A DNA stretch of 46,617 nucleotides from a virus (Duplodnaviria; Heunggongvirae; Uroviricota; Caudoviricetes): the IMG/VR virus record IMGVR_UViG_2541047681_000006, one strand, 5' to 3'. This document shows positions 3,805 through 46,323 of this stretch, piece by piece. Each line of letters starts with the position of its first letter. Position 1 is the first letter of the stretch. Below the pieces are notes generated by a model. That model worked only from the letters and a program-made list of their open reading frames with translations, was not told the DNA's origin and ran no database searches. A program made the translations under genes and the position numbers.

Positions 3805-3805
3805 A

Positions 3806-20755: not shown

Positions 20756-21235
20756 CTTATTATCCTGCATTGTTAAAAACGGCAGAATCCTATGTGACAA
20801 CAATTAAACGATAGTTAAATGGATTGATGAAAATTAAAACTACACAGGTGGGCTCAGACTATTGGAGGAAGTTGGGGACACTCAGAATCCTGTGGAATGA
20901 AATAAACCGGTCTATCCGTCCATTACCCTTTTAGCTGCGCTGTATCGTCGCCGTATTCCCGCATTAACCATGACCGTAGCCCGACGGGGAATTCCTTCTG
21001 CGTGAGTGTGCGGGAATAATTAAAAACGATGCACACCGGGTTTTTACCGCGTTAATGATTCGCGGGTTTATCCCGGTGCGATGGTGGAAGAAACAGGAAG
21101 CTGTATTACAGAAAGTGCTACTACTGTATCCCGATGCGATGTATGTAATGTGAGTCAGATAATGGCACAGGATGTGGTGATGTGGCAGTCTGGAACACAG
21201 GATATATTGTCAGAATAAGACCCGTAGGAATAAAA

Positions 21236-25152: not shown

Positions 25153-26741
25153 AACGAACGCCTGTCCTGATTGATGTGAACGGCGTTCCGCTTCGTGAGA
25201 GTCTCAGCTACAACGGGGGCGGTGCAGGATTTGGCGGGCAAATGGCTGAGTGGTTGCCACCGGCGCAGAGTGCCGATGCGGCCCTGCTGCCCGCGTTGCG
25301 TCTGGGGAATGCCCGGGCAGATGATCTGGTGCGCAATAACGGAATAGCGGCTAATGCGGTGGCTCTGCATAAGGATCACATTGTCGGGCATATGTTTCTG
25401 ATCAGCTACCGTCCGAACTGGCGCTGGCTGGGGATGCGGGAGACCGCAGCAAAAAGCTTTGTCGATGAGGTGGAGGCGGCCTGGTCGGAATACGCCGAAG
25501 GGATGTTTGGCGAGATCGACGTGGAAGGAAAACGCACGTTCACGGAATTTATCCGTGAAGGTGTGGGCGTTCATGCGTTTAACGGCGAAATCTTTGTGCA
25601 GCCGGTCTGGGATACGGAAACCACGCAGTTATTCCGTACGCGTTTTAAAGCCGTGAGTCCGAAACGGGTGGACACGCCTGGACACGGTATGGGGAACCGT
25701 TTTCTGCGGGCCGGTGTGGAGGTCGATCGATATGGCCGTGCCGTCGCGTACCATATCTGTGAGGATGATTTTCCGTTCTCTGGTAGTGGACGATGGGAAC
25801 GGATCCCGCGTGAACTTCCCACCGGGCGTCCGGCCATGCTGCATATTTTCGAGCCGGTGGAGGACGGGCAGACCCGTGGGGCTAATCAGTTTTACAGCGT
25901 CATGGAACGGCTGAAGATGCTCGATTCCCTGCAGGCAACACAGCTTCAGTCGGCCATAGTGAAGGCGATGTATGCAGCGACGATTGAAAGTGAACTTGAT
26001 ACCGAAAAGGCCTTTGAATATATCGCCGGCGCGCCACAGGAGCAGAAGGATAATCCGCTTATTAATATTCTGGAGAAGTTTTCCAGCTGGTATGACACGA
26101 ATAACGTGACACTGGGCGGTGTCAAAATTCCGCACCTTTTCCCTGGTGATGATCTGAAACTACAGACTGCGCAGGATTCAGACAATGGATTTTCTGCGCT
26201 TGAACAGGCGCTGCTGCGGTATATCGCCGCCGGTCTTGGCGTTTCCTACGAACAGTTGTCCCGTGATTACTCGAAGGTCAGTTACTCAAGTGCCCGCGCC
26301 TCCGCCAATGAGTCGTGGCGCTATTTTATGGGGCGGCGAAAATTTATTGCGGCCCGGCTGGCCACGCAGATGTTTTCCTGCTGGCTGGAAGAGGCACTTC
26401 TTCGGGGGATTATTCGTCCGCCACGGGCACGTTTTGATTTTTATCAGGCGCGATCAGCCTGGTCACGGGCAGAGTGGATTGGTGCCGGAAGAATGGCCAT
26501 TGACGGGCTCAAGGAAGTCCAGGAATCAGTGATGCGCATTGAGGCCGGACTGAGCACGTATGAGAAAGAGCTGGCGCTGATGGGCGAGGATTATCAGGAC
26601 ATTTTCCGCCAGCAGGTCAGGGAATCTGCTGAGCGGCAAAAAGCCGGACTCTCACGTCCGGTGTGGATAGAGCAGGCGTATCAGCAGCAGATAGCGGAGA
26701 GTCGTAGGCCGGAAGAGGAGACAACACCACGTGAGACGTAA
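25149..26741 (+). CDS. B: portal protein gpB
   Basis: 530-aa product from ATG 25149; colinear with lambda gpB. Confidence 0.95.
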   Translation: MKRTPVLIDVNGVPLRESLSYNGGGAGFGGQMAEWLPPAQSADAALLPALRLGNARADDLVRNNGIAANAVALHKDHIVGHMFLISYRPNWRWLGMRETAAKSFVDEVEAAWSEYAEGMFGEIDVEGKRTFTEFIREGVGVHAFNGEIFVQPVWDTETTQLFRTRFKAVSPKRVDTPGHGMGNRFLRAGVEVDRYGRAVAYHICEDDFPFSGSGRWERIPRELPTGRPAMLHIFEPVEDGQTRGANQFYSVMERLKMLDSLQATQLQSAIVKAMYAATIESELDTEKAFEYIAGAPQEQKDNPLINILEKFSSWYDTNNVTLGGVKIPHLFPGDDLKLQTAQDSDNGFSALEQALLRYIAAGLGVSYEQLSRDYSKVSYSSARASANESWRYFMGRRKFIAARLATQMFSCWLEEALLRGIIRPPRARFDFYQARSAWSRAEWIGAGRMAIDGLKEVQESVMRIEAGLSTYEKELALMGEDYQDIFRQQVRESAERQKAGLSRPVWIEQAYQQQIAESRRPEEETTPRET

Positions 26742-28236
26742 TCTTTCACACATTATTGCCGCAGCATTCAATGAACCGCTGCTTCTGGAGCCCGCCTATG
26801 CGCGGGTTTTCTTTTGCGCGCTCGGGCGCGAGATGGGGGCAGCAAGTCTTTCGGTACCACAACAGCAGGTACAGTTTGATGCTCCCGGAATGCTGGCTGA
26901 AACGGACGAGTACATGGCCGGAGGTAAACGACCGGCCCGTGTTTACCGGGTGGTGAACGGTATTGCTGTACTGCCGGTGACCGGCACGCTGGTGCACCGG
27001 CTGGGTGGTATGCGGCCATTTTCCGGAATGACAGGCTATGACGGCATTGTCGCCTGTCTTCAGCAGGCAATGGCGGATAGCCAGGTGCGGGGCGTACTGC
27101 TGGACATTGACAGTCCGGGCGGGCAGGCCGCCGGCGCGTTTGACTGCGCTGACATGATTTACCGCCTCCGTCAGCAGAAGCCGGTCTGGGCACTGTGCAA
27201 TGACACGGCCTGTTCTGCAGCCATGCTGCTGGCGTCGGCCTGCTCCCGACGGCTGGTTACCCAGACATCCTGTATCGGCTCCATTGGCGTGATGATGAGC
27301 CATGTCAGCTATGCCGGTCATCTGGCGCAGGCCGGTGTGGATATCACGCTGATTTACTCAGGGGCGCACAAGGTGGATGGCAATCAGTTTGAAGCGTTGC
27401 CGGCAGAGGTTCGCCAGGACATGCAGCAGCGGATTGATGCGGCGCGCCGGATGTTTGCCGAAAAAGTGGCGATGTATACCGGTCTGTCTGTTGATGCCGT
27501 CACGGGAACAGAGGCTGCCGTTTTTGAAGGTCAGTCCGGCATTGAGGCCGGGCTGGCGGATGAATTAATCAATGCGTCGGATGCCATCAGTGTGATGGCC
27601 ACGGCGCTGAACAGTAATGTCAGAGGAGGCACTATGCCGCAATTAACTGCAACGGAAGCCGCCGCGCAGGAGAACCAGCGAGTGATGGGGATCCTGACAT
27701 GCCAGGAAGCGAAAGGACGTGAACAGCTTGCCACGATGCTGGCAGGACAACAGGGCATGAGCGTTGAACAGGCCCGGGCGATTCTGGCCGCGGCGGCACC
27801 GCAGCAGCCGGTGGCATCCACGCAGAGTGAAGCCGATCGCATTATGGCGTGTGAAGAAGCGAACGGTCGTGAACAACTGGCGGCAACGCTGGCGGCGATG
27901 CCGGAGATGACGGTGGAAAAAGCCCGCCCGATCCTGGCTGCTTCACCGCAGGCGGATGCCGGACCATCACTCCGTGATCAGATCATGGCACTGGATGAGG
28001 CAAAAGGGGCTGAGGCGCAGGCTGAACAGCTGGCTGCCTGCCCGGGAATGACAGTGGAGAGCGCCCGGGCTGTGCTGGCTGCGGGATCAGGTAAGGCAGA
28101 ACCGGTCTCTGCATCCACAACCGCCATGTTTGAACATTTCATGGCGAACCATTCACCGGCAGCGGTACAGGGTGGCGTGGCACAGACGTCAGCAGACGGT
28201 GATGCGGACGTGAAAATGCTCATGGCCATGCCATGA
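26731..28236 (+). CDS. C: head maturation protease / scaffold gpC (with nested Nu3-like scaffold region)
   Basis: 501-aa ORF (GTG start at 26731) matching lambda gpC, S49/ClpP-like N-terminal protease domain; C-terminal region carries three tandem copies of a motif present once in lambda. Confidence 0.9.
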   Translation: MRRNLSHIIAAAFNEPLLLEPAYARVFFCALGREMGAASLSVPQQQVQFDAPGMLAETDEYMAGGKRPARVYRVVNGIAVLPVTGTLVHRLGGMRPFSGMTGYDGIVACLQQAMADSQVRGVLLDIDSPGGQAAGAFDCADMIYRLRQQKPVWALCNDTACSAAMLLASACSRRLVTQTSCIGSIGVMMSHVSYAGHLAQAGVDITLIYSGAHKVDGNQFEALPAEVRQDMQQRIDAARRMFAEKVAMYTGLSVDAVTGTEAAVFEGQSGIEAGLADELINASDAISVMATALNSNVRGGTMPQLTATEAAAQENQRVMGILTCQEAKGREQLATMLAGQQGMSVEQARAILAAAAPQQPVASTQSEADRIMACEEANGREQLAATLAAMPEMTVEKARPILAASPQADAGPSLRDQIMALDEAKGAEAQAEQLAACPGMTVESARAVLAAGSGKAEPVSASTTAMFEHFMANHSPAAVQGGVAQTSADGDADVKMLMAMP

Positions 28237-31460: not shown

Positions 31461-31812
31461 GGACGATATGCCAACACCAAATCCTCTGGCACCGGTGAAA
31501 GGGGCCGGAACCACACTGTGGGTTTATAACGGGAGCGGCGACCCTTATGCAAACCCGCTTTCAGACAATGACTGGTCGCGTCTGGCAAAAATTAAAGACC
31601 TGACGCCCGGCGAACTGACCGCTGAGTCCTATGACGACAGTTATCTCGATGATGAAGATGCGGACTGGACCGCGACCGGGCAGGGGCAGAAATCCGCCGG
31701 AGATACCAGCTTCACGCTGTATGAGACGACAATAACTCAGTCCGCCTGGCGCCGATTATTCTGGCCGGTTTTGTAACCTGAGTGTCATTTACATGATCCA
31801 ACAGGAAATGGC

Positions 31813-33312
31813 GTGACGCTCAATACTTCTCAGGTCAGTTACTATATGACTCAGCGTAAGAAAGGTATAACTCAGCATATCTCGGCCATGAAGGCTGGTA
31901 TCTCAGTCCGTTCTGGTCGTCGGATCGAAAAAGGAGAGTGGGCAAAAAACAGTGTTCGGCACTGGCGCACACGCAAAGATCCTCTGGAAGCTGTGTGGGA
32001 CAGCATGCTTGTTCCTCTGTTGAAAGAGAGGCCGGCTCTGACACCAACAACTCTGCTGGAGATGCTACAGGATAAATATCCCGGCCAGTACCCCAACAGC
32101 CTTCGAAGAACAATGCAACGGCGGGTCCGCGAATGGAAGCTACAGTATGGTGCAGAGCAGGAGGTCATGTTCCGCCAGCGACATCAGCCCGGTCTGCGAG
32201 GTCTGTCGGACTTTACTGAACTGAAAGGTGTAGTTGTCACCATCGCCGGTAAGTTGTTGGCGCATAAGTTGTATCACTTCCGTCTGGAATGGAGCCACTG
32301 GAGCTGGATGCGGGTTGTGCTGGGTGGTGAGAGCTTCTCTGCTCTGGCTGAAGGTCTGCAGGAAGCCCTCGGACAACTGGGCGGAGTGCCGGTAGAACAT
32401 AAAACGGACAGCCTGAGGGCAGCATGGAAACAACAGGGCGAAGATGGACGCCGCGAGCTGACTGAGCGTTATGCTGCTCTCTGTCAGCACTACGGAATGC
32501 AGGGCGTACACAATAATGCCGGTCGGGGCCACGAAAATGGCTCGGTTGAAAGTGCCCACGGACATCTGAAAAGGCGTATCTGTCAGGCGCTGATACTGCG
32601 GGGCAGTAACGACTTCAGCACCATAGAAGAATATCAGGCCTTCATCACTCAGCAGGTTATGCGGCACAACCGTAACAATCAGGATCTGGTCAAGGAAGAA
32701 CGTCTTCATCTGAAACCGCTGCCGCTTCGTCGCAGTGCTGACTATGATGAGCTGACTGTGAGGGTTAGCCGCAGCAGTACCATCAATGTGAAGCACGTCG
32801 TCTACAGCGTACCTTCCCGGCTTGTAGGTCAACTGTTACGGGTCCGGTTATGGGACGATCGTCTGAGCTGTTACGTTGGCAGCAGCGAGGTCATGAGCTG
32901 CCCACGTGTCAGACCAGAAAAAGGGAAGACGCGGGCCCGTCGTATCGACTTCCGACATGTGATCGACAGTCTGGCAAAAAAGCCCGGTGCGTTCTGCCAT
33001 GCAACGCTGAGAAATGACATCCTGCCAGACGATGAATGGCGGAGGCTGTGGCGTCGCTTATGTAATCATCTGGAACCCGACATGGCAGGCAGGCTGATGG
33101 TACATGCTCTGAAACTGGCTGCAGGATACGACGATATCTCAGTCGTGGCAAAAGGTATGGAGCAGATGCTGAATACCCCGGGAAACGTGGATCTGCACCG
33201 GCTGATGCGCTTCCTGGGTATAAAGGAAAAGGCGTTGCCGGTAGTCAATGTGAAACAGCATAACCTGAGCAGTTATGAGCAACTACTGCGTGGCAAGGGA
33301 GGTTCGCAGTGA
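31813..33312 (+). CDS. istA: IS21-family transposase IstA
   Basis: 499-aa ORF (GTG start), overlapping istB by 4 nt; IS21-family organisation; later ATG start at 31846 also possible. Confidence 0.8.
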   Translation: MTLNTSQVSYYMTQRKKGITQHISAMKAGISVRSGRRIEKGEWAKNSVRHWRTRKDPLEAVWDSMLVPLLKERPALTPTTLLEMLQDKYPGQYPNSLRRTMQRRVREWKLQYGAEQEVMFRQRHQPGLRGLSDFTELKGVVVTIAGKLLAHKLYHFRLEWSHWSWMRVVLGGESFSALAEGLQEALGQLGGVPVEHKTDSLRAAWKQQGEDGRRELTERYAALCQHYGMQGVHNNAGRGHENGSVESAHGHLKRRICQALILRGSNDFSTIEEYQAFITQQVMRHNRNNQDLVKEERLHLKPLPLRRSADYDELTVRVSRSSTINVKHVVYSVPSRLVGQLLRVRLWDDRLSCYVGSSEVMSCPRVRPEKGKTRARRIDFRHVIDSLAKKPGAFCHATLRNDILPDDEWRRLWRRLCNHLEPDMAGRLMVHALKLAAGYDDISVVAKGMEQMLNTPGNVDLHRLMRFLGIKEKALPVVNVKQHNLSSYEQLLRGKGGSQ

Positions 33313-34064
33313 GCAATATCCATCACCTTGAACGCAGCCTGCGTAAACTACGCCTGACACGAGTTGGAGCTGAATGGCACGCTCTGGAAAAACGAGCACT
33401 GGCAGAAGGCTGGACACCATCGCGCTATCTTCTGACGCTATGCAATGAAGAACTCCTGTGGCGCGAGAGTGAAAAACTGCGTCGTTATAAAAAGGAGGCC
33501 CGGTTGCCAGTTGCCAAAACGCTAAGCGAATACGACTTCAGTCAGGTGCCGGAACTGAATGGAGCTCAGTTCCGGCAACTCTGTGAAACGACAGACTGGG
33601 TTGATGCAGGAGAAAACGTTCTGCTGTTCGGAGCCAGCGGGTTGGGGAAAAGCCATCTGGCGGCAGCGATCGTGGATGGCGTAGTAGGCCAGGGCTACCG
33701 GGCCCGGTTCTACAGCGCAGGAGAGTTGTTGCAGGAACTACGTAAAGCCAGAGCGCAGTTGAAACTGAATGAGCTGCTACTGAAACTGGATCGCTACCGG
33801 GTGATAGTGGTGGATGATCTTGGCTATGTCAAACGCGACAGCGCCGAAACGGGAGTACTGTTCGAGTTAATAGCGCATCGCTATGAACGTGGGAGCCTGG
33901 TGATAACCAGTAACCATCCGTTCAGCATGTGGGGCAGCATCTTCGTGGATGAGACTATGGCGGTGGCGGCGGCAGACCGGCTGATCCATCACGGATATAT
34001 GTTCGAACTGAAAGGTGAAAGCTACAGGAAAAAGACAGCGAAGGCAGTAACAAGCGCGACTTGA
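33309..34064 (+). CDS. istB: IS21-family ATP-binding helper IstB
   Basis: 251-aa ORF with Walker A (GASGLGKSH) and Walker B (VIVVDDLGY) motifs. Confidence 0.85.
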   Translation: MSNIHHLERSLRKLRLTRVGAEWHALEKRALAEGWTPSRYLLTLCNEELLWRESEKLRRYKKEARLPVAKTLSEYDFSQVPELNGAQFRQLCETTDWVDAGENVLLFGASGLGKSHLAAAIVDGVVGQGYRARFYSAGELLQELRKARAQLKLNELLLKLDRYRVIVVDDLGYVKRDSAETGVLFELIAHRYERGSLVITSNHPFSMWGSIFVDETMAVAAADRLIHHGYMFELKGESYRKKTAKAVTSAT

Positions 34065-34639
34065 TGTCGCACTGAAGGGTGCGGCCAGTATAGTTGGCGC
34101 GAGTCGGCAAAACTAGTTGACGTCTAATAACGCTGGCGTGGATGCCCGGAGAGCAGGGGCAGCAGGCGCTGCTGGCGTGGTTTAATGAAGGTGATACCCG
34201 TGCCTATAAAATCCGCTTCCCGAACGGCACGGTCGATGTGTTCCGTGGCTGGGTCAGCAGTATCGGTAAGGCGGTGACGGCGAAGGAAGTGATCACCCGT
34301 ACGGTGAAGGTCACCAATGTGGGCCGTCCGTCAATGGCAGAAGATCGCAGTACGGTGACGGCGGCAACCGGTATGACCGTGACGCCTGCCAGCTCCTCGG
34401 TGGTGAAAGGGCAGAGCACCACGCTGACCGTGGCCTTCCAGCCGGAGGGCGCAACTGACAAGAGCTTCCGTGCGGTGTCAGCGGATAAAACAAAAGCCAC
34501 CGTGTCGGTCAGTGGTATGACCATCACCGTGAACGGCGTTGCTGCAGGCAAGGTCAACATTCCGGTTGTATCCGGTAATGGTGAACTTGCTGCGGTTGCA
34601 GAAATCACTGTCACCGACAGTTAATCCGGAGAGTCAGCG

Positions 34640-35062
34640 ATGTTCCTGAAAACCGAATCATTTGAACATAACGGCGTGACCGTCACGCTTTCTGAACTGT
34701 CAGCCCTGCAGCGTATTGAGCATCTCGCCCTGATGAAACAGCAGGCAGAACAGGCGGAGTCAGACAGCAACCGGCAGGTTACTGTGGAAGACGCCATCAG
34801 AACCGGTGCTTTTGTGGTGGCGATGTCCCTGTGGCATAACCATCCGCAGAAGACAAAGCAGCCTTCCATGAATGAAGCCGTTAAACAGATTGAGCAGGAA
34901 GTGCTTACCACCTGGCCCGCGGAGGCAATTTCTCATGCTGAAAACGTGGTGTACCGGCTGTCCGGTATGTATGGGTTTGTGGTGAATGATGCCCCTGACC
35001 AGGCAGAGGACTCCGGGCCTGCAGAGCCTGTTTCTGCGGGAAAGTGTTCGACGGTGAGCTGA
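34640..35062 (+). CDS. G: tail assembly chaperone gpG
   Basis: 140-aa ORF matching lambda G; slippery heptamer GGGAAAG near its 3' end. Confidence 0.9.
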   Translation: MFLKTESFEHNGVTVTLSELSALQRIEHLALMKQQAEQAESDSNRQVTVEDAIRTGAFVVAMSLWHNHPQKTKQPSMNEAVKQIEQEVLTTWPAEAISHAENVVYRLSGMYGFVVNDAPDQAEDSGPAEPVSAGKCSTVS

Positions 35063-35478
35063 GTTTTGCCCTGAAACTGGCGCGAGAGATGGGGCGACCT
35101 GACTGGCGCGCCATGCTTGCCGGGATGTCATCCACGGAGTATGCCGACTGGCACCGCTTTTACAGTACCCATTATTTTCATGATGTTCTGCTGGATATGC
35201 ACTTTTCCGGGCTGACGTACACTGTGCTCAGCCTGTTTTTCAGCGATCCGGATATGCATCCGCTGGATTTCAGTTTGCTGAACCGGCGTGAGGATGACGA
35301 AGAGCCTGAAGATGATGTGCTGATGCAGAAAGCGGCAGGGCTTACCGGAGGCGTCCGCTTTGACCCGGACGGAAATGAAGTTATCCCCGCTTCCCCGGAT
35401 ATGGCGGGCATGACGGAGGATGACGTAATGCTGATGACAGTATCAGAAGGGATCGCAGGAGGAGTCCGGTATGGCTGA
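34640..35478 (+). CDS. GT: tail assembly chaperone gpG-T (programmed -1 frameshift product)
   Basis: Slippery site GGGAAAG at 35038-35044; the -1 frame continues as VFDGELSFALKLAREMGRPDW... (lambda gpT) to 35478. Confidence 0.75.
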
Positions 35479-38032
35479 ACCGGTAGGCGATCTGGTCGTT
35501 GATTTAAGTCTGGATGCGGCCAGATTTGACGAGCAGATGGCCAGAGTCAGGCGTCATTTTTCCGGTACGGAAAGTGATGCGAAAAAAACAGCGGCAGTCG
35601 TTGAACAGTCGCTGAGCCGACAGGCGCTGGCTGCACAGAAAGCGGGGATTTCCGTCGGGCAGTATAAAGCCGCCATGCGTATGCTGCCTGCACAGTTCAC
35701 CGACGTGGCCACGCAGCTTGCAGGCGGGCAAAGCCCGTGGCTGATCCTGCTGCAACAGGGTGGTCAGGTTAAGGACTCCTTCGGCGGGATGATCCCCATG
35801 TTCCGGGGGCTTGCCGGTGCGATCACCCTGCCGATGGTCGGGGCCACCTCGCTGGCGGTGGCGACCGGTGCGCTGGCGTATGCCTGGTATCAGGGTAACT
35901 CAACCCTGTCCGATTTCAACAAAACGCTGGTCCTTTCCGGCAATCAGTCGGGTCTGACGGCAGATCGTATGCTGGTCCTGTCCAGAGCCGGGCAGGCGGC
36001 AGGGCTGACGTTTAACCAGACCAGCGAGTCACTCAGCGCACTGGTTAAGGCGGGAGTAAGCGGTGAGGCTCAGATTGCATCCATCAGCCAGAGTGTGGCG
36101 CGTTTCTCCTCTGCATCCGGCGTGGAGGTGGACAAGGTCGCTGAAGCCTTCGGGAAGCTGACCACTGACCCGACGTCGGGGCTGACGGCGATGGCGCGCC
36201 AGTTCCATAACGTAACGGCGGAGCAGATTGCGTATGTTGCTCAGTTGCAGCGTTCCGGCGATGAATCCGGGGCATTGCAGGCGGCGAACGAGGCCGCAAC
36301 GAAAGGGTTTGATGACCAGACCCGACGCCTGAAAGAGAACATGGGCACGCTGGAAACCTGGGCAGACAGGACAGCACGGGCATTCAAATCCATGTGGGAT
36401 GCGGTGCTGGATATTGGTCGTCCTGATACCGCTCAGGAGATGCTGATTAAGGCAGAGGCTGCGTTTAAGAAAGCGGACGACATCTGGAATCTGCGCAAGG
36501 ATGATTATTTTGTTAACGATGAAGCGCGGGCGCGTTACTGGGATGATCGTGAAAAGGCCCGTCTTGCGCTTGAAGCCGCCCGAAAGAAGGCTGAACAGCA
36601 GAGTCAACAGGACAAAAATGCGCAGCAGCAGAGCGATACCGAAGCATCACGGCTGAAATATACCGAAGAGGCGCAGAAGGCTTACGAACGGCTGCAGACA
36701 CCGCTGGAGAAATATACCGCCCGTCAGGAAGAACTGAACAAGGCACTGAAAGACGGGAAAATCCTGCAGGCAGATTACAACACGCTGATGGCGGCGGCGA
36801 AAAAGGATTATGAAGCGACGCTGAAAAAGCCGAAACAGTCCGGCGTGAAGGTGTCTGCGGGCGATCGTCAGGAAGACAGTGCTCATGCTGCCCTGCTGAC
36901 GCTTCAGGCTGAACTCCGGACGCTGGAGAAGCATGCCGGAGCAAATGAGAAAATCAGCCAGCAGCGCCGGGATTTGTGGAAGGCGGAGAGTCAGTTCGCG
37001 GTACTGGAGGAGGCGGCGCAACGTCGCCAGCTGTCTGCACAGGAGAAATCCCTGCTGGCGCATAAAGATGAGACGCTGGAGTACAAACGCCAGCTGGCTG
37101 CACTTGGCGACAAGGTTACGTATCAGGAGCGCCTGAACGCGCTGGCGCAGCAGGCGGATAAATTCGCACAGCAGCAACGGGCAAAACGGGCCGCTATTGA
37201 TGCGAAAAGCCGGGGGCTGACTGACCGGCAGGCAGAACGGGAAGCCACGGAACAGCGCCTGAAGGAACAGTATGGCGATAATCCTCTGGCGCTGAATAAC
37301 GTCATGTCAGAGCAGAAAAAGACCTGGGCGGCTGAAGACCTGCTTCGCGGGAACTGGATGGCAGGCCTGAAGTCCGGCTGGAGTGAGTGGGAAGAGAGTG
37401 CCACGGACAGTATGTCGCAGGTTAAAAGTGCTGCCACGCAGACCTTTGATGGTATTGCGCAGAATATGGCGGCGATGCTGACCGGCAGTGAACAGAACTG
37501 GCGCAGCTTCACCCGTTCCGTGCTGTCCATGATGACAGAAATTCTGCTTAAGCAGGCAATGGTGGGGATTGTCGGGAGTATCGGCAGCGCTATTGGCGGG
37601 GCTGTTGGTGGCGGCGCATCCGCGTCAGGCGGTACAGCCATTCAGGCCGCTGCGGCGAAACTCCATTTTGCAACCGGAGGATTTACGGGAACCGGCGGCA
37701 AATATGAGCCAGCGGGGATTGTTCACCGTGGTGAATTTGTCTTCACGAAGGAGGCAACCAGCCGGATTGGCGTGGGAAATCTCTACCGGCTGATGCGCGG
37801 CTATGCCACCGGCGGTTATGTCGGTGGCACCGGAAGTCCGGCGCAAATGCGGCGTTCAGAGGGTATCAGGTTTGAGCAGAACAACAACGTGGTGATTCAG
37901 AACGACGGTACGAATGGTCTGCCAGGTCCACAGATGATGAAGGCGGTGTATGACATGGCCCGCAAGGGTGCCCGTGATGAAATCCAGGCACAGATGCGCG
38001 ATGGTGGTCTGTTCTCCGGAGGTGGACGATGA
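35471..38032 (+). CDS. H: tail tape measure protein gpH
   Basis: 853-aa ORF, same length as and colinear with lambda H. Confidence 0.95.
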   Translation: MAEPVGDLVVDLSLDAARFDEQMARVRRHFSGTESDAKKTAAVVEQSLSRQALAAQKAGISVGQYKAAMRMLPAQFTDVATQLAGGQSPWLILLQQGGQVKDSFGGMIPMFRGLAGAITLPMVGATSLAVATGALAYAWYQGNSTLSDFNKTLVLSGNQSGLTADRMLVLSRAGQAAGLTFNQTSESLSALVKAGVSGEAQIASISQSVARFSSASGVEVDKVAEAFGKLTTDPTSGLTAMARQFHNVTAEQIAYVAQLQRSGDESGALQAANEAATKGFDDQTRRLKENMGTLETWADRTARAFKSMWDAVLDIGRPDTAQEMLIKAEAAFKKADDIWNLRKDDYFVNDEARARYWDDREKARLALEAARKKAEQQSQQDKNAQQQSDTEASRLKYTEEAQKAYERLQTPLEKYTARQEELNKALKDGKILQADYNTLMAAAKKDYEATLKKPKQSGVKVSAGDRQEDSAHAALLTLQAELRTLEKHAGANEKISQQRRDLWKAESQFAVLEEAAQRRQLSAQEKSLLAHKDETLEYKRQLAALGDKVTYQERLNALAQQADKFAQQQRAKRAAIDAKSRGLTDRQAEREATEQRLKEQYGDNPLALNNVMSEQKKTWAAEDLLRGNWMAGLKSGWSEWEESATDSMSQVKSAATQTFDGIAQNMAAMLTGSEQNWRSFTRSVLSMMTEILLKQAMVGIVGSIGSAIGGAVGGGASASGGTAIQAAAAKLHFATGGFTGTGGKYEPAGIVHRGEFVFTKEATSRIGVGNLYRLMRGYATGGYVGGTGSPAQMRRSEGIRFEQNNNVVIQNDGTNGLPGPQMMKAVYDMARKGARDEIQAQMRDGGLFSGGGR

Positions 38033-38358
38033 AAACCTTCCGCTGGAAAGTGAAACCCGGGATGGATGTGACATCGGCTCCTTCCGTCAGGGAGGTGCGC
38101 TTTGGTGATGGCTATTCCCAGCGTGCGCCTGCCGGGCTGAACGCTGACCTGAAAACGTACAGCGTGACGCTGTCTGTCTCCCGTGAGGAGGCCACGGCGC
38201 TGGAGTCGTTTCTGGCTGAGCACGGGGGCTGGAAGGCCTTTCTGTGGACGCCGCCTTATGGTTACAGGCAGATAAAGGTGACCTGCGCAAAATGGTCGTC
38301 GCGGGTCAGTATGCTGCGTGTTGAGTTCAGCGCAGAGTTTGAACAGGTGGTGAACTGA
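38029..38358 (+). CDS. M: minor tail protein gpM
   Basis: 109-aa ORF matching lambda M. Confidence 0.9.
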   Translation: MKTFRWKVKPGMDVTSAPSVREVRFGDGYSQRAPAGLNADLKTYSVTLSVSREEATALESFLAEHGGWKAFLWTPPYGYRQIKVTCAKWSSRVSMLRVEFSAEFEQVVN

Positions 38359-39056
38359 TGCAGGATATCCGGCAGGAAACATTGAATGAATGCACCCGTG
38401 CGGAGCAGTCGGCCAGCGTGGTGCTCTGGGAAATCGATCTGACAGAGGTCGGTGGAGAACGTTATTTTTTCTGTAATGAGCAGAACGAAAAAGGTGAGCC
38501 GGTCACCTGGCAGGGGCGACAGTATCAGCCGTATCCCATTCAGGGGAGTAGTTTTGAACTGAATGGCAAAGGCACCAGTACGCGCCCCACGCTGACGGTT
38601 TCTAACCTGTACGGTATGGTCACCGGGATGGTGGAAGATCTGCAGAGTCTGGTCGGCGGAACGGTGGTCAGGCGTAAGGTTTACGCCCGTTTTCTGGATG
38701 CGGTGAACTTCGTCAACGGAAACAGCGACGCCGATCCGGAGCAGGAGGTGATCAGCCGCTGGCGCATCGAGCAGTGCAGCGAACTGAGTGCGGTCAGTGC
38801 CTCCTTTGTACTGTCCACACCGACGGAAACGGATGGTGCCGTTTTTCCGGGGCGCATCATGCTGGCTAATACCTGCACCTGGACCTATCGCGGTGATGAG
38901 TGCGGTTATCACGGTCCGGCGGTCGCGGATGAATATGATCAGCCGACTTCCGATATCACGAAGGATAAATGCAGCAAATGCCTGAGCGGCTGTAAGTTTC
39001 GCAATAACGTCGGCAACTTTGGCGGCTTCCTTTCCATTAACAAACTTTCGCAGTAA
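38358..39056 (+). CDS. L: minor tail protein gpL
   Basis: 232-aa ORF matching lambda L (C-terminal Cys cluster). Confidence 0.9.
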   Translation: MQDIRQETLNECTRAEQSASVVLWEIDLTEVGGERYFFCNEQNEKGEPVTWQGRQYQPYPIQGSSFELNGKGTSTRPTLTVSNLYGMVTGMVEDLQSLVGGTVVRRKVYARFLDAVNFVNGNSDADPEQEVISRWRIEQCSELSAVSASFVLSTPTETDGAVFPGRIMLANTCTWTYRGDECGYHGPAVADEYDQPTSDITKDKCSKCLSGCKFRNNVGNFGGFLSINKLSQ

Positions 39057-39061
39057 ATCCC

Positions 39062-39805
39062 ATGACAGAGACAGAATCAGCGATTCTGGCGCATGCCCGG
39101 CGATGTGCGCCAGCGGAGTCGTGCGGCTTCGTGGTGAGAGCGCCGGAGGGGGAAAGATATTTTCCCTGCGTGAATATCTCCGGTGAGCCGGAGGCGTATT
39201 TCCGGATGGCTCCGGAGGACTGGCTGCAGGCAGAGATGCAGGGTGAGATTGTGGCGCTGGTCCACAGTCATCCCGGTGGTCTGCCCTGGCTGAGTGAGGC
39301 CGACCGGCGGCTGCAGGTGCAGAGTGATTTGCCGTGGTGGCTGGTCTGCCGGGGGGCGATTCATAAGTTCCGCTGTGTGCCGCATCTCACCGGGCGGCGC
39401 TTTGAGCACGGGGTGACGGACTGTTACACGCTGTTCCGGGACGCTTACCATCTGGCGGGGATTGAGATGCCGGACTTTCATCGTGAGGATGACTGGTGGC
39501 GTAACGGCCAGAATCTCTATCTTGATAATCTGGAGGCCACAGGGCTGTATCAGGTGCCGTTGTCAGCGGCGCAGCCGGGCGATGTGCTGCTGTGCTGCTT
39601 TGGTTCATCGGTGCCGAATCATGCCGCTATTTACTGTGGTGACGGCGAGCTGCTGCACCATATTCCTGAACAACTGAGTAAACGAGAGAGGTATACCGAC
39701 AAATGGCAGCGACGCACACACTCCCTCTGGCGTCACCGGGCATGGCGCGCATCTGCCTTTACGGGGATTTACAACGATTTGGCCGCCGCATCGACCTTCG
39801 TGTGA
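39062..39805 (+). CDS. K: tail assembly protein gpK (JAB/MPN + NlpC/P60-like)
   Basis: ORF matching lambda K (HSHPGG metalloprotease-like motif; Cys/His peptidase motifs); overlaps the start of I. Confidence 0.85.
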   Translation: MTETESAILAHARRCAPAESCGFVVRAPEGERYFPCVNISGEPEAYFRMAPEDWLQAEMQGEIVALVHSHPGGLPWLSEADRRLQVQSDLPWWLVCRGAIHKFRCVPHLTGRRFEHGVTDCYTLFRDAYHLAGIEMPDFHREDDWWRNGQNLYLDNLEATGLYQVPLSAAQPGDVLLCCFGSSVPNHAAIYCGDGELLHHIPEQLSKRERYTDKWQRRTHSLWRHRAWRASAFTGIYNDLAAASTFV

Positions 39806-40374
39806 AAACGGGGGCTGAAGCCATCCGCGCACTGGCCACACAGCTCCCGGTGTTTCGTCAGAAACTGAGCGACGGCTGGTATCAGGTACGGATTGCCGGG
39901 CGGGACGTCAGCACGTCCGGGTTAACGGCGCAGTTACATGAGACTCTGCCTGATGGCGCTGTGATTCATATTGTTCCCAGAGTCGCCGGGGCCAAGTCAG
40001 GTGGCGTATTCCAGATTGTCCTGGGGGCTGCCGCCATTGCCGGATCATTCTTTACCGCCGGAGCCACCCTTGCAGCATGGGGGGCAGCCATTGGGGCCGG
40101 TGGTATGACCGGCATCCTGTTTTCTCTCGGTGCCAGTATGGTGCTCGGTGGTGTGGCGCAGATGCTGGCACCGAAAGCCAGAACTCCCCGTACACAGACA
40201 ACGGATAACGGCAAACAGAACACCTATTTCTCCTCACTGGATAACATGGTTGCCCAGGGCAATGTTCTGCCGGTTCTGTACGGTGAAATGCGCGTGGGGT
40301 CACGCGTGGTTTCTCAGGAGATCAGCACGGCAGACGAAGGGGATGGTGGTCAGGTTGTGGTGATTGGTCGCTGA
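39703..40374 (+). CDS. I: tail assembly protein gpI
   Basis: 223-aa ORF matching lambda I. Confidence 0.9.
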   Translation: MAATHTLPLASPGMARICLYGDLQRFGRRIDLRVKTGAEAIRALATQLPVFRQKLSDGWYQVRIAGRDVSTSGLTAQLHETLPDGAVIHIVPRVAGAKSGGVFQIVLGAAAIAGSFFTAGATLAAWGAAIGAGGMTGILFSLGASMVLGGVAQMLAPKARTPRTQTTDNGKQNTYFSSLDNMVAQGNVLPVLYGEMRVGSRVVSQEISTADEGDGGQVVVIGR

Positions 40375-40434
40375 TGCAAAATGTTTTATGTGAAACCGCC
40401 TCCGGGCGGTTTTATCGTTTATGGAGCATGAGGA

Positions 40435-43400
40435 ATGGGTAAAGGCAGCAGTAAGGGGCATACCCCGCGCGAAGCGAAGGACAACCTGAAATCATCCCAG
40501 ATGCTGAGCGTGATAGACGCCATCAGCGAAGGGCCGGTTGAAGGTCCGGTGGATGGATTAAAAAGCGTGCTGCTGAACAGTACGCCGGTGCTGGACAGTG
40601 AGGGGAATACCAATATATTCGGCGTCACGGTGGTGTTCCGGGCCGGTGAGCAGGAGCAGACACCGCCGGAGGGATTTGAATCCTCCGGCTCCGAGACGGT
40701 GCTCGGTACAGAAGTGAAATATGACACGCCGATCACCCGGACCATCACGTCGGCAAACATTGACCGTCTGCGTTTTACTTTCGGCGTGCAGGCACTGGTG
40801 GAAACCACCTCAAAGGGGGACAGGAATCCATCGGAAGTCCGCCTGCTGGTTCAGATTCAACGTAACGGTGGCTGGGTGACGGAAAAAGACATCACCATTA
40901 AGGGCAAAACCACGTCGCAGTATCTGGCCTCGGTGGTGGTGGATAACCTGCCGCCGCGCCCGTTTAATATCCGGATGCGCAGGATGACGCCGGACAGCAC
41001 CACAGACCAGTTGCAGAACAAAACGCTCTGGTCGTCATACACCGAAATCATCGATGTGAAACAGTGCTACCCGAACACGGCACTGGTCGGCGTACAGGTG
41101 GACTCGGAGCAGTTCGGCAGCCAGCAGGTGAGCCGTAATTATCATCTTCGCGGGCGCATTCTGCAGGTGCCGTCGAACTATAACCCGCAGACGCGGCAAT
41201 ACAGCGGTATCTGGGACGGAACGTTTAAGCCAGCATACAGCAACAACATGGCCTGGTGTCTGTGGGATATGCTGACCCATCCGCGCTACGGCATGGGGAA
41301 ACGTCTTGGTGCGGCAGATGTGGATAAATGGGCGCTGTATGTCATCGGCCAGAATTGCGACCAGTCAGTGCCGGACGGCTTTGGCGGCACGGAGCCGCGC
41401 ATCACCTGTAATGCGTACCTGACCACACAGCGCAAGGCGTGGGATGTGCTCAGTGATTTTTGCTCGGCGATGCGCTGTATGCCGGTATGGAACGGGCAGA
41501 CGCTGACATTCGTGCAGGACCGACCGTCGGATAAGGTGTGGACCTATAACCGCAGTAATGTGGTGATGCCGGATGATGGCGCGCCGTTCCGCTACAGCTT
41601 CAGCGCCCTGAAAGACCGCCATAATGCCGTTGAGGTGAACTGGATTGACCCGGATAACGGCTGGGAGACGGCGACAGAGCTTGTGGAGGACACGCAGGCC
41701 ATTGCCCGTTACGGTCGTAACGTCACGAAGATGGATGCCTTTGGCTGTACCAGCCGGGGGCAGGCACACCGCGCCGGGCTGTGGCTGATTAAAACGGAGC
41801 TGCTGGAAACGCAGACCGTGGACTTCAGCGTGGGTGCAGAAGGGCTTCGCCATGTACCGGGCGATGTCATTGAAATCTGTGATGATGACTATGCGGGGAT
41901 CAGCATCGGCGGGCGCGTGCTGGCGGTGAACAACCAGACGCGGACACTGACGCTCGACCGTGAAATCACGCTGCCATCCTCCGGCACCACGCTGATAAGC
42001 CTGGCTGACGGACAGGGGAATCCGGTCAGCGTGGAGGTCCAGTCCGTCACCGACGGCGTGAAGGTAAAAGTGAGCCGTGTTCCTGACGGCGTTGCAGAAT
42101 ACAGCGTGTGGGGGCTGAAGTTGCCAACGTTGCGCCAGCGCCTGTTCCGCTGTGTGAGTATCCGTGAGAACGATGACGGCACGTATGCCATCACTGCCGT
42201 GCAGCATGTACCGGAAAAAGAGGCCATCGTGGATAACGGGGCGCACTTTGACGGCGACCAGAGCGGCACGGTGAATGGTGTCACGCCGCCAGCGGTGCAG
42301 CACCTGACTGCCGAAGTCACCGCAGACAGCGGGGAATATCAGGTGCTGGCGCGCTGGGACACGCCGAAGGTGGTGAAGGGGGTGAGCTTTATGCTTCGCC
42401 TGACCGTGGCAGCGGATGACGGCAGTGAGCGGCTGGTCAGCACGGCCCGGACGACGGAAACCACATACCGCTTCAGGCAACTGGCGCTGGGGAACTACAG
42501 GCTGACAGTCCGGGCGGTAAATGCGTGGGGGCAGCAGGGCGATCCGGCATCGGTATCGTTCCGGATTGCCGCACCGGCAGCGCCGTCGCAGATTGAGCTG
42601 ACACCGGGGTATTTTCAGATAACCGCCACGCCGCATCTTGCGGTTTATGATCCGACGGTACAGTTTGAGTTCTGGTTCTCGGAAAAGCGGATTGCGGATA
42701 TCAGGCAGGTTGAAACCACAGCACGCTATCTTGGCACGGCGCTGTACTGGATAGCCGCCAGTATCAATATCAAACCGGGCCATGATTATTATTTTTACAT
42801 CCGCAGTGTGAACACCGTTGGCAAATCGGCATTTGTGGAGGCTGTTGGCCAGCCGAGTGATGATGCATCCGGCTATCTGAATTTTTTCAAAGGAGAGATA
42901 GGGAAAACCCATCTGGCTCAGGAGTTGTGGACGCAGATTGATAACGGTCAGCTTGCGCCTGACCTGGCTGAAATCAGGACGTCCATTACGGGTGTCAGCA
43001 ATGAAATCACGCAGACCGTCAATAAGAAACTGGAAGACCAGAGTGCGGCAATTCAGCAGATACAGAAGGTTCAGGTTGATACAAATAATAACCTGAACAG
43101 CATGTGGGCTGTGAAGCTGCAGCAGATGCAGGACGGACGCCTTTATATCGCGGGTATTGGTGCCGGTGTTGAGAATACTCCTGACGGTATGCAGAGTCAG
43201 GTGCTGCTGGCGGCGGACAGGATTGCGATGATTAATCCTGCGAATGGCAACACAAAGCCGATGTTTGTTGGGCAGGGCGATCAGATATTCATGAACGAAG
43301 TGTTCCTGAAATATCTGACGGCTCCCACCATTACCAGCGGTGGCAATCCCCCAACGTTTTCACTGACACCTGATGGTCGACTTTCTGCGAAAAATGCGGA

Positions 43401-43917
43401 TATCAGCGGTAACGTGAACGCGAACTCCGGGACGCTCAACAACGTCACGATTAATCAGAACTGTCGGATTCTGGGAAAACTGTCAGCTAACCAGATTGAA
43501 GGTGATATTGTCAAAACGGTGGGAAAAGCCTTTCCGAGAAATGGCAGTTATGCCAGCGGTACAATAACGGTCACTGTGTACGATGACCAGGCTTTTGACC
43601 GTCAGATAGTAGTCCCCCCCGTTCTGTTTCGTGGGGGTAAGCATGAAAACTTCAACAGCAACAACCAACAGTCATACTGGTATTCAACCTGTAAGCTGCA
43701 GGTACTGAAGAACGGACAGGAAATCTTTCAGCAACCCGCGACGGATGTCAGCAGGGTATTTTCATCAGTCATTGATATGCCTGCCGGACACGGCCATGTC
43801 ACCCTGACTTTCAATGTTTCTTCATATGGTGCTAATAACTGGACGCCAACGACCAGTATCAGCGACCTTCTTGTTGTTGTGATGAAGAAATCTACAGCCG
43901 GTATCAGTATCAGTTGA
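40435..43917 (+). CDS. J: central tail fiber / host-specificity protein gpJ
   Basis: 1160-aa ORF; N-terminus matches lambda J ([22 protein letters not shown]...); fibronectin-III-like central region. Confidence 0.95.
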
Positions 43918-43936
43918 ATTTTATAACCCAGATACG

Positions 43937-43964
43937 GGCGCCAGAAATGGCGCCTTTTTTATTT
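43937..43964 (+). terminator. intrinsic terminator after J
   Basis: GGCGCC-AGAAAT-GGCGCC stem-loop followed by TTTTTTATTT. Confidence 0.6.
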
Positions 43965-43975
43965 GTGGAGTGAAT

Positions 43976-46036
43976 ATGGCAGTACAGATTTCAGGCGTGC
44001 TGAAAGACGGTGCAGGAAAACCGATACAGAACTGCACCATTCAGCTCAAAGCAAAACGTAACAGCACCACGGTTGTGGTGAACACGGTGGCCTCAGAAAA
44101 TCCGGATGAAGCCGGACGTTACAGCATGGATGTCGAGTATGGCCAGTACAGCGTTATCCTGCTGGTTGAAGGTTTTCCGCCTTCACATGCCGGGGCCATC
44201 ACCGTGTATGAGGATTCTAAGCCGGGGACATTGAATGATTTTCTGGGCGCTGCAACAGAAGATGATGTTCGTCCGGAGGCACTGTATCGTTTTGAAAAGA
44301 TGGTGGAAGAGGTGGCACGCAACGCTGAAGCCGCCTCTCAGAGCGCAGCGGCAGCAAAGAAATCAGAAACAGCAGCGGCATCGTCCAGGAATGCGGCGAA
44401 AACATCAGAGACGAATGCAGGTAACAGCGCGAAAGCGGCAGCTTCTTCAAAAACAGCCGCACAAAACGCAGCAACAGCGGCAGAACGTTCAGAGACAAAT
44501 GCCCGTGCGTCAGAAGAAGCCTCCGCAGACAGTGAAGAGGCTTCCCGCCGTAATGCAGAGTCAGCCGCTGAAAATGCCGGAGTCGCCACCACAAAAGCGC
44601 GGGAGGCCGCAGCAGACGCAACAAAGGCCGGGCAGAAAAAGGATGAGGCTCTGTCGGCAGCGACACGGGCTGAAAAGGCGGCAGACCGCGCAGAAGTCGC
44701 AGCGGAAGTGACTGCAGAGCCCTATGCGAATATAGTGCCGCCGCTGCCTGATGTGTGGATACCGTTTAACGATTCACTGGATATGATTGCGGGTTTTTCT
44801 CCGGGCTATAAAAAAATAGCTATTGGTGACGATGTGGTTCAGGTCGCCAGTGATAAACAGGTTAATTTCAGTCGCGCATCAACGGCAACATATATCAACA
44901 AATCTGGCGAACTGAAAACGGCGGAAATTAATGAGCCGCGATTTGAGTGTGATGGCCTGCTTATTGAGGGACAAAGAACGAACTACATGCTCAATTCGGA
45001 AAGTCCAGCCAGCTGGGGGAAGTCATCAAACATGGATGTGCCCGAAACCGGGACAGATAGTTTTGGTTTTACTTATGGAAAGTTTGTCTGCAACGATTCT
45101 CTGGTTGGGCAAACTTCGGCTATTAATATGGCATCAATTGCTGCAACAAAGTCAGTTGATGTCTCAGGCGATAACAAGTACGTGACAACCTCATGCCGTT
45201 TTAAAACAGAACGACAGGTAAGGTTACGTATACGGTTTGATAAGTATGATGGTAGTGCAACAACTTTTCTTGGCGATGCGTACATTGATACGCAAACGCT
45301 TGAAATTAATATGACAGGTGGGGCTGCCGGCAGAATTACGGCACGAGTCAGGAAGGATAAGACCACAGGCTGGATTTTTGCAGAGGCAACGATTCAGGCA
45401 ATTGATGGTGAGTTAAAAATAGGCTCTCAGATACAGTATTCTCCTGAGCGGGGTGGGGCAACAGTATCTGGTGACTATATTTATCTTGCCACCCCACAAG
45501 TAGAGAATGGGCCGTGTGTATCATCATTTATTATTTCAGGAGGCAGCGCAACGACAAGAGCCAGTGATTTGGTTAGTATCCCCACCAGAAATAATCTTTA
45601 TAAGTTACCATTTACTTTTTTACTTGAGATTCATAAAAACTGGGATATTGCACCAAACGCCGCACCCCGCGTGTGGGATATAGCAGCAGCCAATACCGGG
45701 CAATCAGCAATTGCAGCAATCAACAGAGGTAGTGGTAAGTTATATATGAGTCTGTCAAACCCTTCAGGCTTGTATGTTAATAGCGCAGCGACAGATGTAT
45801 TTGCAGAGAAAACCACATTTGGATGTATTGCAAAAGCTGATGGTCACTTTCATGTGGTGACAAATGGTAAAGCGGTTAATGAAGTTTATTGTGAATATAA
45901 TGGTGTGACCGCTGATAAAAATATCCGATTTGGAGGGCAGACGAATACTGGAGAACGACATCTGTTTGGCCATATTCGCAATTTCCGCATATGGCATAAA
46001 GAATTAAATGACAGGCAATTAAAAGAGGTCGTATGA
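43976..46036 (+). CDS. stf: side tail fiber protein (Stf-like) with divergent C-terminal domain
   Basis: N-terminal ~90 aa match lambda Stf (MAVQISGVLKDGAGKPIQNCTIQLKA...); Ala-rich repetitive stalk; C-terminal ~400 aa not lambda-like. Confidence 0.8.
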   Translation: MAVQISGVLKDGAGKPIQNCTIQLKAKRNSTTVVVNTVASENPDEAGRYSMDVEYGQYSVILLVEGFPPSHAGAITVYEDSKPGTLNDFLGAATEDDVRPEALYRFEKMVEEVARNAEAASQSAAAAKKSETAAASSRNAAKTSETNAGNSAKAAASSKTAAQNAATAAERSETNARASEEASADSEEASRRNAESAAENAGVATTKAREAAADATKAGQKKDEALSAATRAEKAADRAEVAAEVTAEPYANIVPPLPDVWIPFNDSLDMIAGFSPGYKKIAIGDDVVQVASDKQVNFSRASTATYINKSGELKTAEINEPRFECDGLLIEGQRTNYMLNSESPASWGKSSNMDVPETGTDSFGFTYGKFVCNDSLVGQTSAINMASIAATKSVDVSGDNKYVTTSCRFKTERQVRLRIRFDKYDGSATTFLGDAYIDTQTLEINMTGGAAGRITARVRKDKTTGWIFAEATIQAIDGELKIGSQIQYSPERGGATVSGDYIYLATPQVENGPCVSSFIISGGSATTRASDLVSIPTRNNLYKLPFTFLLEIHKNWDIAPNAAPRVWDIAAANTGQSAIAAINRGSGKLYMSLSNPSGLYVNSAATDVFAEKTTFGCIAKADGHFHVVTNGKAVNEVYCEYNGVTADKNIRFGGQTNTGERHLFGHIRNFRIWHKELNDRQLKEVV

Positions 46037-46311: not shown

Positions 46312-46323
46312 AAGGAGGAAATA

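What the first reader, a model, noticed from the sequence alone, without database searches (positions are those of the whole stretch)
31468..34624. Major tail protein gene V split by an IS21-family element: prophage probably tail-defective
Seen in sequence: the gpV reading frame breaks after ...SAGDTSFTL at 31719 and resumes at 34130 with [10 protein letters not shown]..., residues that are adjacent in lambda V. The intervening 2.4 kb encodes IstA-like and IstB-like proteins, with ACGCTG present at both junctions. Inference: an insertion after prophage establishment that inactivates the major tail tube protein while every other structural gene looks intact, so the element could make heads but not tails.
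Basis: partly seen in the sequence, partly recalled or inferred. Interest (0 to 1): 0.6.

Follow-up and report, generated by a model that had tools for sequence, protein, structure and literature searches.

The report
ISEc10 splits prophage tail-tube gene
A common E. coli jumping gene (ISEc10) has landed in the middle of the tail-tube gene V of an otherwise complete phage-21/lambda-like prophage, which very probably stops that prophage from building tails on its own; the event is real and recent but ordinary.

Summary
Window 31720-34129 is a complete 2410-bp ISEc10 (IS21 family: istA, istB, imperfect 48-nt terminal inverted repeats). It is 100% identical to copies in CFT073 and many other E. 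coli. It lies between codons 84 and 85 of a lambda-type major tail (tube) gene V and is flanked by a 6-bp target duplication, ACGCTG.

A near-identical prophage in strain EC5654 differs by 7 SNPs over 44.2 kb. It carries the empty site with ACGCTG once and an intact 246-codon V. None of 5,426 complete E. coli genomes has this junction. No metagenome contig or representative genome contig matched it either. At least 30 genomes listed carry the uninterrupted V at 100% identity. The insertion is therefore recent and strain-specific.

The break lies inside the tube-forming N-terminal domain of V, and the window holds no second V. All other lambda head and tail genes are full length. The prophage is phage-21-like, sits at icd in relatives, and is 99.8% identical to the deposited phage PhiR57_1.

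The tail-less phenotype is inferred, not shown. Three caveats apply:
- A co-resident lambdoid prophage could supply V in trans.
- A private Arg-to-Cys change sits in the head protease gene C.
- The likely genome length of about 51.9 kb is near the cos packaging limit.

This is a known kind of event and of low interest.

The parts
31468..31719 (+). 5' fragment of major tail (tube) gene V, codons 1-84
   Evidence: tblastn with lambda V residues 1-84, 92.9% identity; PF16461 model positions 1-67
31468..31776 (+). Truncated V' reading frame: V residues 1-84 plus 18 residues read from the IS left end ([18 protein letters not shown]), then a stop
   Evidence: Translation
31714..31719 (.). Left copy of the 6-bp target-site duplication ACGCTG (V codons Thr83-Leu84)
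   Evidence: Present once in the EC5654 empty site. 7 of 9 independent ISEc10 copies have exact 6-bp duplications
31720..34129 (+). Complete ISEc10 (IS21 family), 2410 bp, in the same orientation as V and the late operon
   Evidence: 100% identity over exactly these 2410 bp to copies in CFT073 and many other genomes and plasmids in unrelated contexts, annotated 'IS21-like element ISEc10 family'
31720..31767 (.). Left terminal inverted repeat (imperfect)
   Evidence: the repeat finder pair I1: 48 nt, 71% complementary, lying exactly at the element's two ends
31813..33312 (+). istA, transposase, 499 aa, GTG start
   Evidence: NF033546 IS21 family transposase, 227 bits against a cut-off of 160; PF22483
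33309..34064 (+). istB, AAA+ helper ATPase, 251 aa; its start overlaps the istA stop (GTGA)
   Evidence: NF038214 267 bits against a cut-off of 200; PF01695 209 bits. Walker A GASGLGKS and Walker B VIVVDD are visible in the translation
34082..34129 (.). Right terminal inverted repeat; contains an outward-facing TTGACG at 34117-34122
   Evidence: the repeat finder pair I1; sequence
34130..34135 (.). Right copy of the target-site duplication ACGCTG
34136..34624 (+). 3' fragment of V, codons 85-246 plus the stop: second half of the tube domain and the C-terminal Ig-like (Big_2) domain
   Evidence: tblastn with lambda V residues 82-246, 97% identity; PF16461 model positions 66-135 and PF02368

Best explanation
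A transposition-competent copy of ISEc10 inserted into the major tail-tube gene V of a resident phage-21/lambda-type prophage. ISEc10 is an IS21-family element encoding the IstA DDE transposase and the IstB AAA+ helper.

The insertion lies between codons 84 and 85 and made the 6-bp staggered-cut duplication ACGCTG. V is now two non-functional pieces. One is an 84-residue N-terminal stub fused to 18 IS-encoded residues. The other is a promoterless 3' piece with no good ribosome-binding site.

The break is in the middle of the tube-forming N-terminal domain, and the prophage has no other tube gene. Acting alone, the prophage should therefore be unable to polymerise tails. On induction it would still excise, replicate, lyse the cell and probably fill heads, but it would release no infectious particles.

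Shown: the insertion, its identity, its boundaries, the target duplication, its recency, and the intactness of the other reading frames. Inferred: the phenotype. I also infer that downstream tail genes G to J stay expressed, because Q-antiterminated late transcription reads through the IS.
For: - Identity and boundaries of the IS: exact 2410-bp, 100% matches in unrelated contexts; IstA and IstB above NCBIfam equivalog cut-offs; terminal inverted repeats at the very ends.
- Empty site: the EC5654 prophage is collinear with the window at 99.98% identity (7 SNPs) and holds ACGCTG once. The deposited phage PhiR57_1 is 99.8% identical with intact V.
- A 6-bp duplication is the rule for ISEc10.
- V pieces correspond to lambda V residues 1-84 and 82-246. 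The reconstructed V is 246 aa and in frame.
- Solved structures show the N-terminal tube domain spans about residues 1-156 and the Ig domain 158-245. Residue 84 is therefore inside the tube domain.
- There is no other V-like sequence in the window.
- nu1, A, W, B, C, D, E, FII, Z, U, G, T, H, M, L, K, I and J all give full-length, uninterrupted matches. The G-T slippery site GGGAAAG is present.
- The junction is absent from 5,426 complete E. coli genomes, from metagenome contigs and from GTDB representatives. The uninterrupted V occurs at >=99% identity in 223 records.
- ISEc10 transposes de novo in the related strain CFT073 (PMC7482066).
Against: - No phenotype was measured.
- The host genome outside the window is unknown. 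Close relatives with the same prophage carry 1-3 V-like genes. Defective lambdoid prophages can be complemented by co-resident ones (PMC2669165).
- Only one strong + strand terminator-like site was seen inside the IS, but polarity on G-J was not tested.
- A private R181C change in head gene C means that 'heads are made' is not certain either.
Confidence: 0.9

Rival explanations
1. The insertion is real but phenotypically masked. Another lambdoid prophage in the same cell supplies a compatible V protein, or recombines to repair V, so tailed infectious particles carrying this genome are still produced.
For: - Genomes carrying the identical uninterrupted V often have 2-3 V-like places, for example CFT073 with 3 and ATCC 25922 with 2.
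- Complementation of morphogenetic defects among lambdoid prophages is documented in O157 Sakai (PMC2669165).
- Clustered synonymous differences in J (43047, 43050, 43053) look like a gene-conversion patch from a homologous prophage.
Against: - Some close relatives (EC5654, ABU 83972, D8) have only one V-like place.
- The host of this window is not visible.
- With sitABCD, as in PhiR57_1, plus the IS, the genome would be about 51.9 kb. By my own knowledge that is roughly 107% of lambda length, at or above the efficient cos packaging limit.
Confidence: 0.2
2. The prophage was already non-functional for other reasons. The IS insertion would then be a neutral hit in decaying DNA rather than the inactivating lesion.
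For: - There is a private non-synonymous change, R181C, in head protease/scaffold gene C. It affects an Arg conserved with lambda, and no match was found among 1,864 genomes carrying this segment.
- Relatives carry a few annotated pseudogene remnants in non-essential nin and ea regions.
Against: - There are only 7 SNPs against EC5654 over 44.2 kb.
- It is 99.8% identical and collinear to a genome deposited as a complete phage with a propagation host.
- Head genes are 99.8% identical to phage 21.
- All structural reading frames are open.
- int, xis, cI, cro, O, P, Q, S, R and Rz are present as in relatives.
Confidence: 0.1
3. It is an assembly artefact: an IS copy wrongly placed into V by the assembler.
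For: ISEc10 is multicopy in related strains, up to 7 full copies in CFT073. Repeats of this kind can confuse short-read assemblies.
Against: Both junctions are exact to the base, with a perfect 6-bp target duplication of the length typical for this IS. A misjoin would not create a duplication of V codons 83-84.
Confidence: 0.02

Closest known systems
ISEc10 (IS21 family) copies in E. coli CFT073, ST131 and plasmids
   Same: 100% nucleotide identity over all 2410 bp. Same istA-istB organisation with a GTGA stop/start overlap, the same ends and a 6-bp target duplication. ISEc10 is known to be mobile in CFT073 and to disrupt or modulate genes (PMC7482066, PMC8764528).
   Different: Only the insertion site differs. 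This V junction was found in no other sequence searched.
ISEc10 insertion in gene V of a lambdoid prophage of E. coli N96 (NZ_CM169999.1)
   Same: Same IS, same orientation and same target gene family. PGAP annotates it there as two V pseudogene pieces flanking istA and istB.
   Different: It is an independent event in a different prophage. The insertion is about 513 nt into V, near the junction of the tube and Ig domains, with different flanking sequence.
IS-disrupted morphogenesis genes in the defective lambdoid prophages of E. coli O157 Sakai (Asadulghani et al. 2009, PMC2669165)
   Same: An IS insertion knocks out a single packaging or morphogenesis gene of an otherwise lambda-like prophage. 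Such prophages remain inducible and may be complemented by co-resident prophages.
   Different: The IS differs (the Sakai example quoted disrupts nu1), as do the target gene and the host lineage (extra-intestinal ST73-type relatives). Here the lesion appears to be the only gross defect.
Phage lambda V amber mutants (classical genetics; own knowledge)
   Same: Loss of the tube protein with all other genes intact. Such mutants make DNA-filled heads that are active in in-vitro complementation, but no tails.
   Different: Here the loss is by insertion rather than a nonsense codon. The head module is of phage-21 type, 52-67% identical to lambda proteins, while Z, U, G, T, H, M, L, K and I are 91-99% identical to lambda and J is 83%. 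The phenotype was not tested.
Phage 21 (OL657228) and Escherichia phage PhiR57_1 (PV340572)
   Same: The head module and Z-U are 99.8-99.9% identical. The whole window is collinear with PhiR57_1 at 99.8%. Relatives integrate next to icd, the phage 21 attachment locus (the attachment locus is my own knowledge).
   Different: Those genomes have an intact V. The window carries the 2416-bp insertion.

Membership tests
IS21 family insertion sequence | A long transposase gene istA with the IS21-type HTH and DDE core | tested here: met
   NF033546 'IS21 family transposase' (equivalog), 227 bits against a cut-off of 160, model positions 2-293 of 294
IS21 family insertion sequence | A second, shorter gene istB directly downstream in the same orientation, encoding an AAA+ helper ATPase | tested here: met
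   NF038214 267 bits against a cut-off of 200, and PF01695 209 bits. Walker A and B motifs are present. The istA stop and istB start overlap as GTGA at 33309-33312
IS21 family insertion sequence | Imperfect terminal inverted repeats at both ends | tested here: met
   48-nt arms, 71% complementary, at 31720-31767 and 34082-34129, exactly at the ends defined by cross-genome matches
IS21 family insertion sequence | Short direct target duplication (4-8 bp for this family; range from own knowledge) | tested here: met
   6 bp ACGCTG, proven by the empty site. 7 of 9 independent ISEc10 copies have an exact 6-bp duplication
ISEc10 (the named element) | Near-identity in nucleotide sequence to the reference element over its full length | tested here: inconclusive
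   100% identity over 2410 bp to elements that RefSeq/PGAP names 'IS21-like element ISEc10 family'. The ISfinder reference sequence itself could not be consulted. One paper gives 2,530 bp for an ISEc10 insertion (PMC8764528)
Lambda-type major tail (tube) protein gpV | N-terminal tail-tube domain (PF16461) followed by a C-terminal Ig-like Big_2 domain, encoded between U and G | tested here: met
   The two pieces cover PF16461 positions 1-67 and 66-135, plus PF02368. The reconstructed protein matches solved lambda gpV over residues 1-245, E=2e-152. Gene order is Z-U-V-G-T-H
Lambda-type major tail (tube) protein gpV | A single uninterrupted reading frame giving a functional tube subunit | tested here: not met
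   The frame is interrupted after codon 84 by 2416 bp. The gene is a pseudogene in this window
Phage 21-like lambdoid prophage | Phage-21-type head and terminase module, and integration next to icd | tested here: met
   99.8% nucleotide identity to phage 21 over 9.3 kb. In the near-identical EC5654 prophage the integrase gene abuts icd. The window itself ends at int, so its own attachment site was not seen

The most novel reading that the evidence does not exclude
ISEc10 lies in the sense orientation inside the Q-antiterminated late operon. Prophage induction (SOS) could therefore drive strong read-through transcription of istA and istB, coupling a burst of ISEc10 transposition to induction. 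If a co-resident prophage supplies V, the IS could also ride out of the cell inside particles. The evidence shows only the orientation, a plausible AGGA ribosome-binding site before the istA GTG, and the absence of a strong terminator upstream of it. Nothing tests expression.
Probability: 0.1. Interest if true: 0.35.

Novelty: already known. Interest (0 to 1): 0.1.

Why it matters
This matters little beyond this strain. It is a clean, datable example of the first step of prophage decay: one IS hit in an essential tail gene of an otherwise viable phage. The phage carries cargo of clinical interest, namely iss/bor, a porin and, in relatives, sitABCD.

For annotation, V should be called a pseudogene and the prophage should be scored as 'incomplete tail module' despite looking intact to prophage finders. 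For strain typing, the V::ISEc10 junction is a unique marker.

Tried and rejected
1. Is there a hot spot for ISEc10 in phage tail genes? The top-ranked hits included insertions in V, tape-measure and other tail genes. An evenly spaced sample of 60 ISEc10 records showed none in tail genes. The ranking had favoured copies whose flanks happen to resemble the V flank, so I rejected this as an ascertainment effect.

2. Is the element 2412 bp with terminal TG and a 4-bp duplication? The dinucleotide left of the element differs among independent copies, and the duplications are 6 bp. Rejected.

3. Does the same junction occur elsewhere? I searched complete E. coli genomes and ran exact 33-mer searches of metagenome contigs and GTDB representative genomes. 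Nothing was found.

4. Is there a second V in the window? tblastn found none.

5. Does the outward TTGACG at the right IS end form a hybrid promoter for the V 3' fragment? No acceptable -10 lies at 16-18 nt, and the promoter scan found no + strand promoter. Rejected.

6. Is there a paper describing PhiR57_1? None is in the library.

7. Rfam scan of the window: only the lambda cIII thermoregulator was found, and nothing in the IS or V region.

Full report
**1. The observation**

Gene V starts at 31468. Its frame reads ...[14 protein letters not shown] up to 31719, then runs 18 codons into foreign sequence and stops at 31776. A second frame ending at 34624 contains ...[20 protein letters not shown]....

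Using the real lambda V from NC_001416, tblastn places residues 1-84 at 31468-31719 (92.9% identity) and residues 82-246 at 34127-34621 (97.0%). Pfam PF16461 (lambda tail tube protein) matches model positions 1-67 in the first piece. It matches positions 66-135 in the second, followed by a Big_2 Ig-like domain.

Deleting 31720-34135 gives an in-frame 246-codon gene, the same length as lambda V. ACGCTG is present at 31714-31719 and at 34130-34135.

**2. What the insert is**

A megablast of 31720-34129 against 5,426 complete E. coli genomes gave 100% matches over exactly these 2410 bases. The matches lie in many unrelated chromosomal and plasmid contexts, including seven places in CFT073. They are annotated 'IS21-like element ISEc10 family' transposase (istA) and helper ATPase (istB).

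- IstA (31813-33312, 499 aa) scores 227 bits on NF033546 (cut-off 160).
- IstB (33309-34064, 251 aa) scores 267 bits on NF038214 (cut-off 200) and 209 bits on PF01695.
- The istA stop and istB start overlap (GTGA).
- The longest inverted repeat in the region is a 48-nt, 71% complementary pair lying exactly at the two ends.

Eight other independent ISEc10 copies were fetched. Six have exact 6-bp duplications of different sequence, one has 7 bp and one is imperfect. This fixes the element's ends at TATGAG...CTAATA and shows that a 6-bp duplication is its normal footprint. ISEc10 has been seen to make new insertions in CFT073 in the laboratory (PMC7482066).

**3. Proof of insertion and its age**

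The first 12 kb of the window is 100% identical to prophages in many E. coli strains, for example ATCC 25922 and EC5654.

The EC5654 prophage (NZ_CP095086.1) was fetched whole. Window 1-31719 aligns to it with 4 mismatches, and window 34130-46617 aligns with 3 mismatches. The two alignments overlap by the six bases ACGCTG, so EC5654 has the empty site with the target sequence once. V is annotated there as an intact 741-nt gene.

The reconstructed V is found uninterrupted at 100% identity in at least 30 listed genomes, including CFT073, ATCC 25922 and ABU 83972. It is found at >=99% in 223 records.

By contrast, no complete genome contains the junction. An exact 33-mer across the left junction is absent from the metagenome contigs and from the GTDB representative genomes. 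The insertion is therefore recent and, as far as the data go, private to the source strain. It happened in an already resident prophage.

**4. The prophage**

The head and terminase module plus Z-U is 99.8-99.9% identical to phage 21 and to Escherichia phage PhiR57_1. The whole window is collinear with PhiR57_1 at 99.8%, apart from the IS. In EC5654 the integrase gene abuts icd.

Against lambda proteins, nu1, A, W, B, C, D, E and FII are 52-67% identical. Z, U, G, T, H, M, L, K and I are 91-99% identical, and J is 83%. All give single uninterrupted matches of essentially full length. The G-T slippery heptamer is present. No other V-like sequence exists in the window.

Of the 7 differences from EC5654, four are synonymous: one in U and three clustered in J. 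Two fall in a hypothetical immunity-region gene. One changes Arg181 to Cys in the head protease/scaffold gene C. That Arg is conserved in lambda C. No other genome carrying this segment has the window's exact sequence (best match 99.5%).

**5. Mechanism and consequences**

*Shown.* IS21-type transposition produced a simple insertion with a 6-bp duplication and split V at codon 84/85. Solved structures of gpV show the tube-forming domain spans about residues 1-156 and the dispensable Ig domain 158-245. The break is therefore inside the essential domain.

*Inferred from lambda genetics (own knowledge).* Without V the tail initiator cannot grow a tube, so no tails and no infectious particles are made. 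Heads are still filled, and lysis still occurs because S, R and Rz are intact as in relatives.

*Inferred.* Downstream tail genes remain transcribed, because late transcription is Q-antiterminated. Only one weak + strand terminator-like hairpin is seen in the IS. G has its own GGAGAG ribosome-binding site.

*Caveats.*
- (a) Another lambdoid prophage in the unseen host genome may supply V. Relatives have 1-3 V-like genes, and such complementation is documented (PMC2669165).
- (b) R181C in C may affect head maturation.
- (c) The prophage may extend through sitABCD, as in PhiR57_1 (49,482 bp). The IS would then raise it to about 51.9 kb, near or above the efficient cos packaging limit (own knowledge).

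**6. Comparison with what is known, and verdict**

Both partners are well known, and standard annotation already labels an analogous case. In strain N96 an independent ISEc10 insertion splits V of another lambdoid prophage, and PGAP marks the two pieces as pseudogenes. IS knock-outs of prophage morphogenesis genes are a textbook route of prophage decay.

I tested whether ISEc10 prefers tail genes. An even sample of insertion sites showed no such bias.

The finding is real, correctly interpreted and ordinary. Its novelty class is 'already known', and only the particular allele is new. Interest is 0.1.

Noticed in passing
window 27271 (gene C, 26731-28236, codon 181): There is a private non-synonymous change in the head protease/scaffold gene. 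The window has Cys where EC5654, PhiR57_1 and lambda (R185) have Arg, five residues before the conserved GSIGV motif. None of the 1,864 E. coli genomes with this segment matches the window exactly. It may be a second lesion or a harmless variant.
   Followed up: partly
window 43047, 43050, 43053 (gene J) and 11241, 11243: Five of the seven differences from the EC5654 prophage are clustered: three synonymous third-position changes within 7 bp in J, and two within 3 bp in a hypothetical gene. The pattern looks like short gene-conversion patches from a homologous prophage rather than independent mutations.
   Followed up: no
window 17589-18731 (-), 20462-20755 (-), 21182-21562 (+); beyond 46617 in relatives: Cargo genes lie in the late region: an OmpC/OmpD-like porin between Q and S, iss/bor, and a partial TonB-like gene. 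In EC5654 and in the deposited phage genome PhiR57_1, sitABCD follows directly after the last gene of the window. The true prophage therefore probably extends about 5 kb beyond the window.
   Followed up: partly
window 7593-7651 (-): Rfam Lambda_thermo, the cIII thermoregulator element, matches at 88.5 bits against a gathering score of 50. It was the only Rfam match in the window.
   Followed up: no
L001 (E. coli N96, NZ_CM169999.1) 3755-6922; L006; L007; L009: ISEc10 has independently disrupted V of another lambdoid prophage (N96, about 513 nt into the gene). It has also disrupted tape-measure genes (strains 510016 and 06-00048) and other 'phage tail protein' genes (AHB1, plasmid pe1-39_A). 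An even sample of ISEc10 sites shows no enrichment for tail genes.
   Followed up: yes
window 34117-34122: An outward-facing TTGACG lies 7 nt inside the right end of ISEc10. It resembles the -35 half of the junction promoter described for IS21 tandems (own knowledge). It may relate to reports, cited in PMC7482066, that ISEc10 insertions upstream of ampC raise its expression. No matching -10 lies in the adjacent V fragment.
   Followed up: partly
window 43976-46036 (+): The side tail fibre reading frame is continuous (686 codons, as annotated in PhiR57_1). RefSeq splits the near-identical EC5654 sequence into a pseudogene and a separate gene. This looks like an annotation artefact rather than a lesion.
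   Followed up: partly
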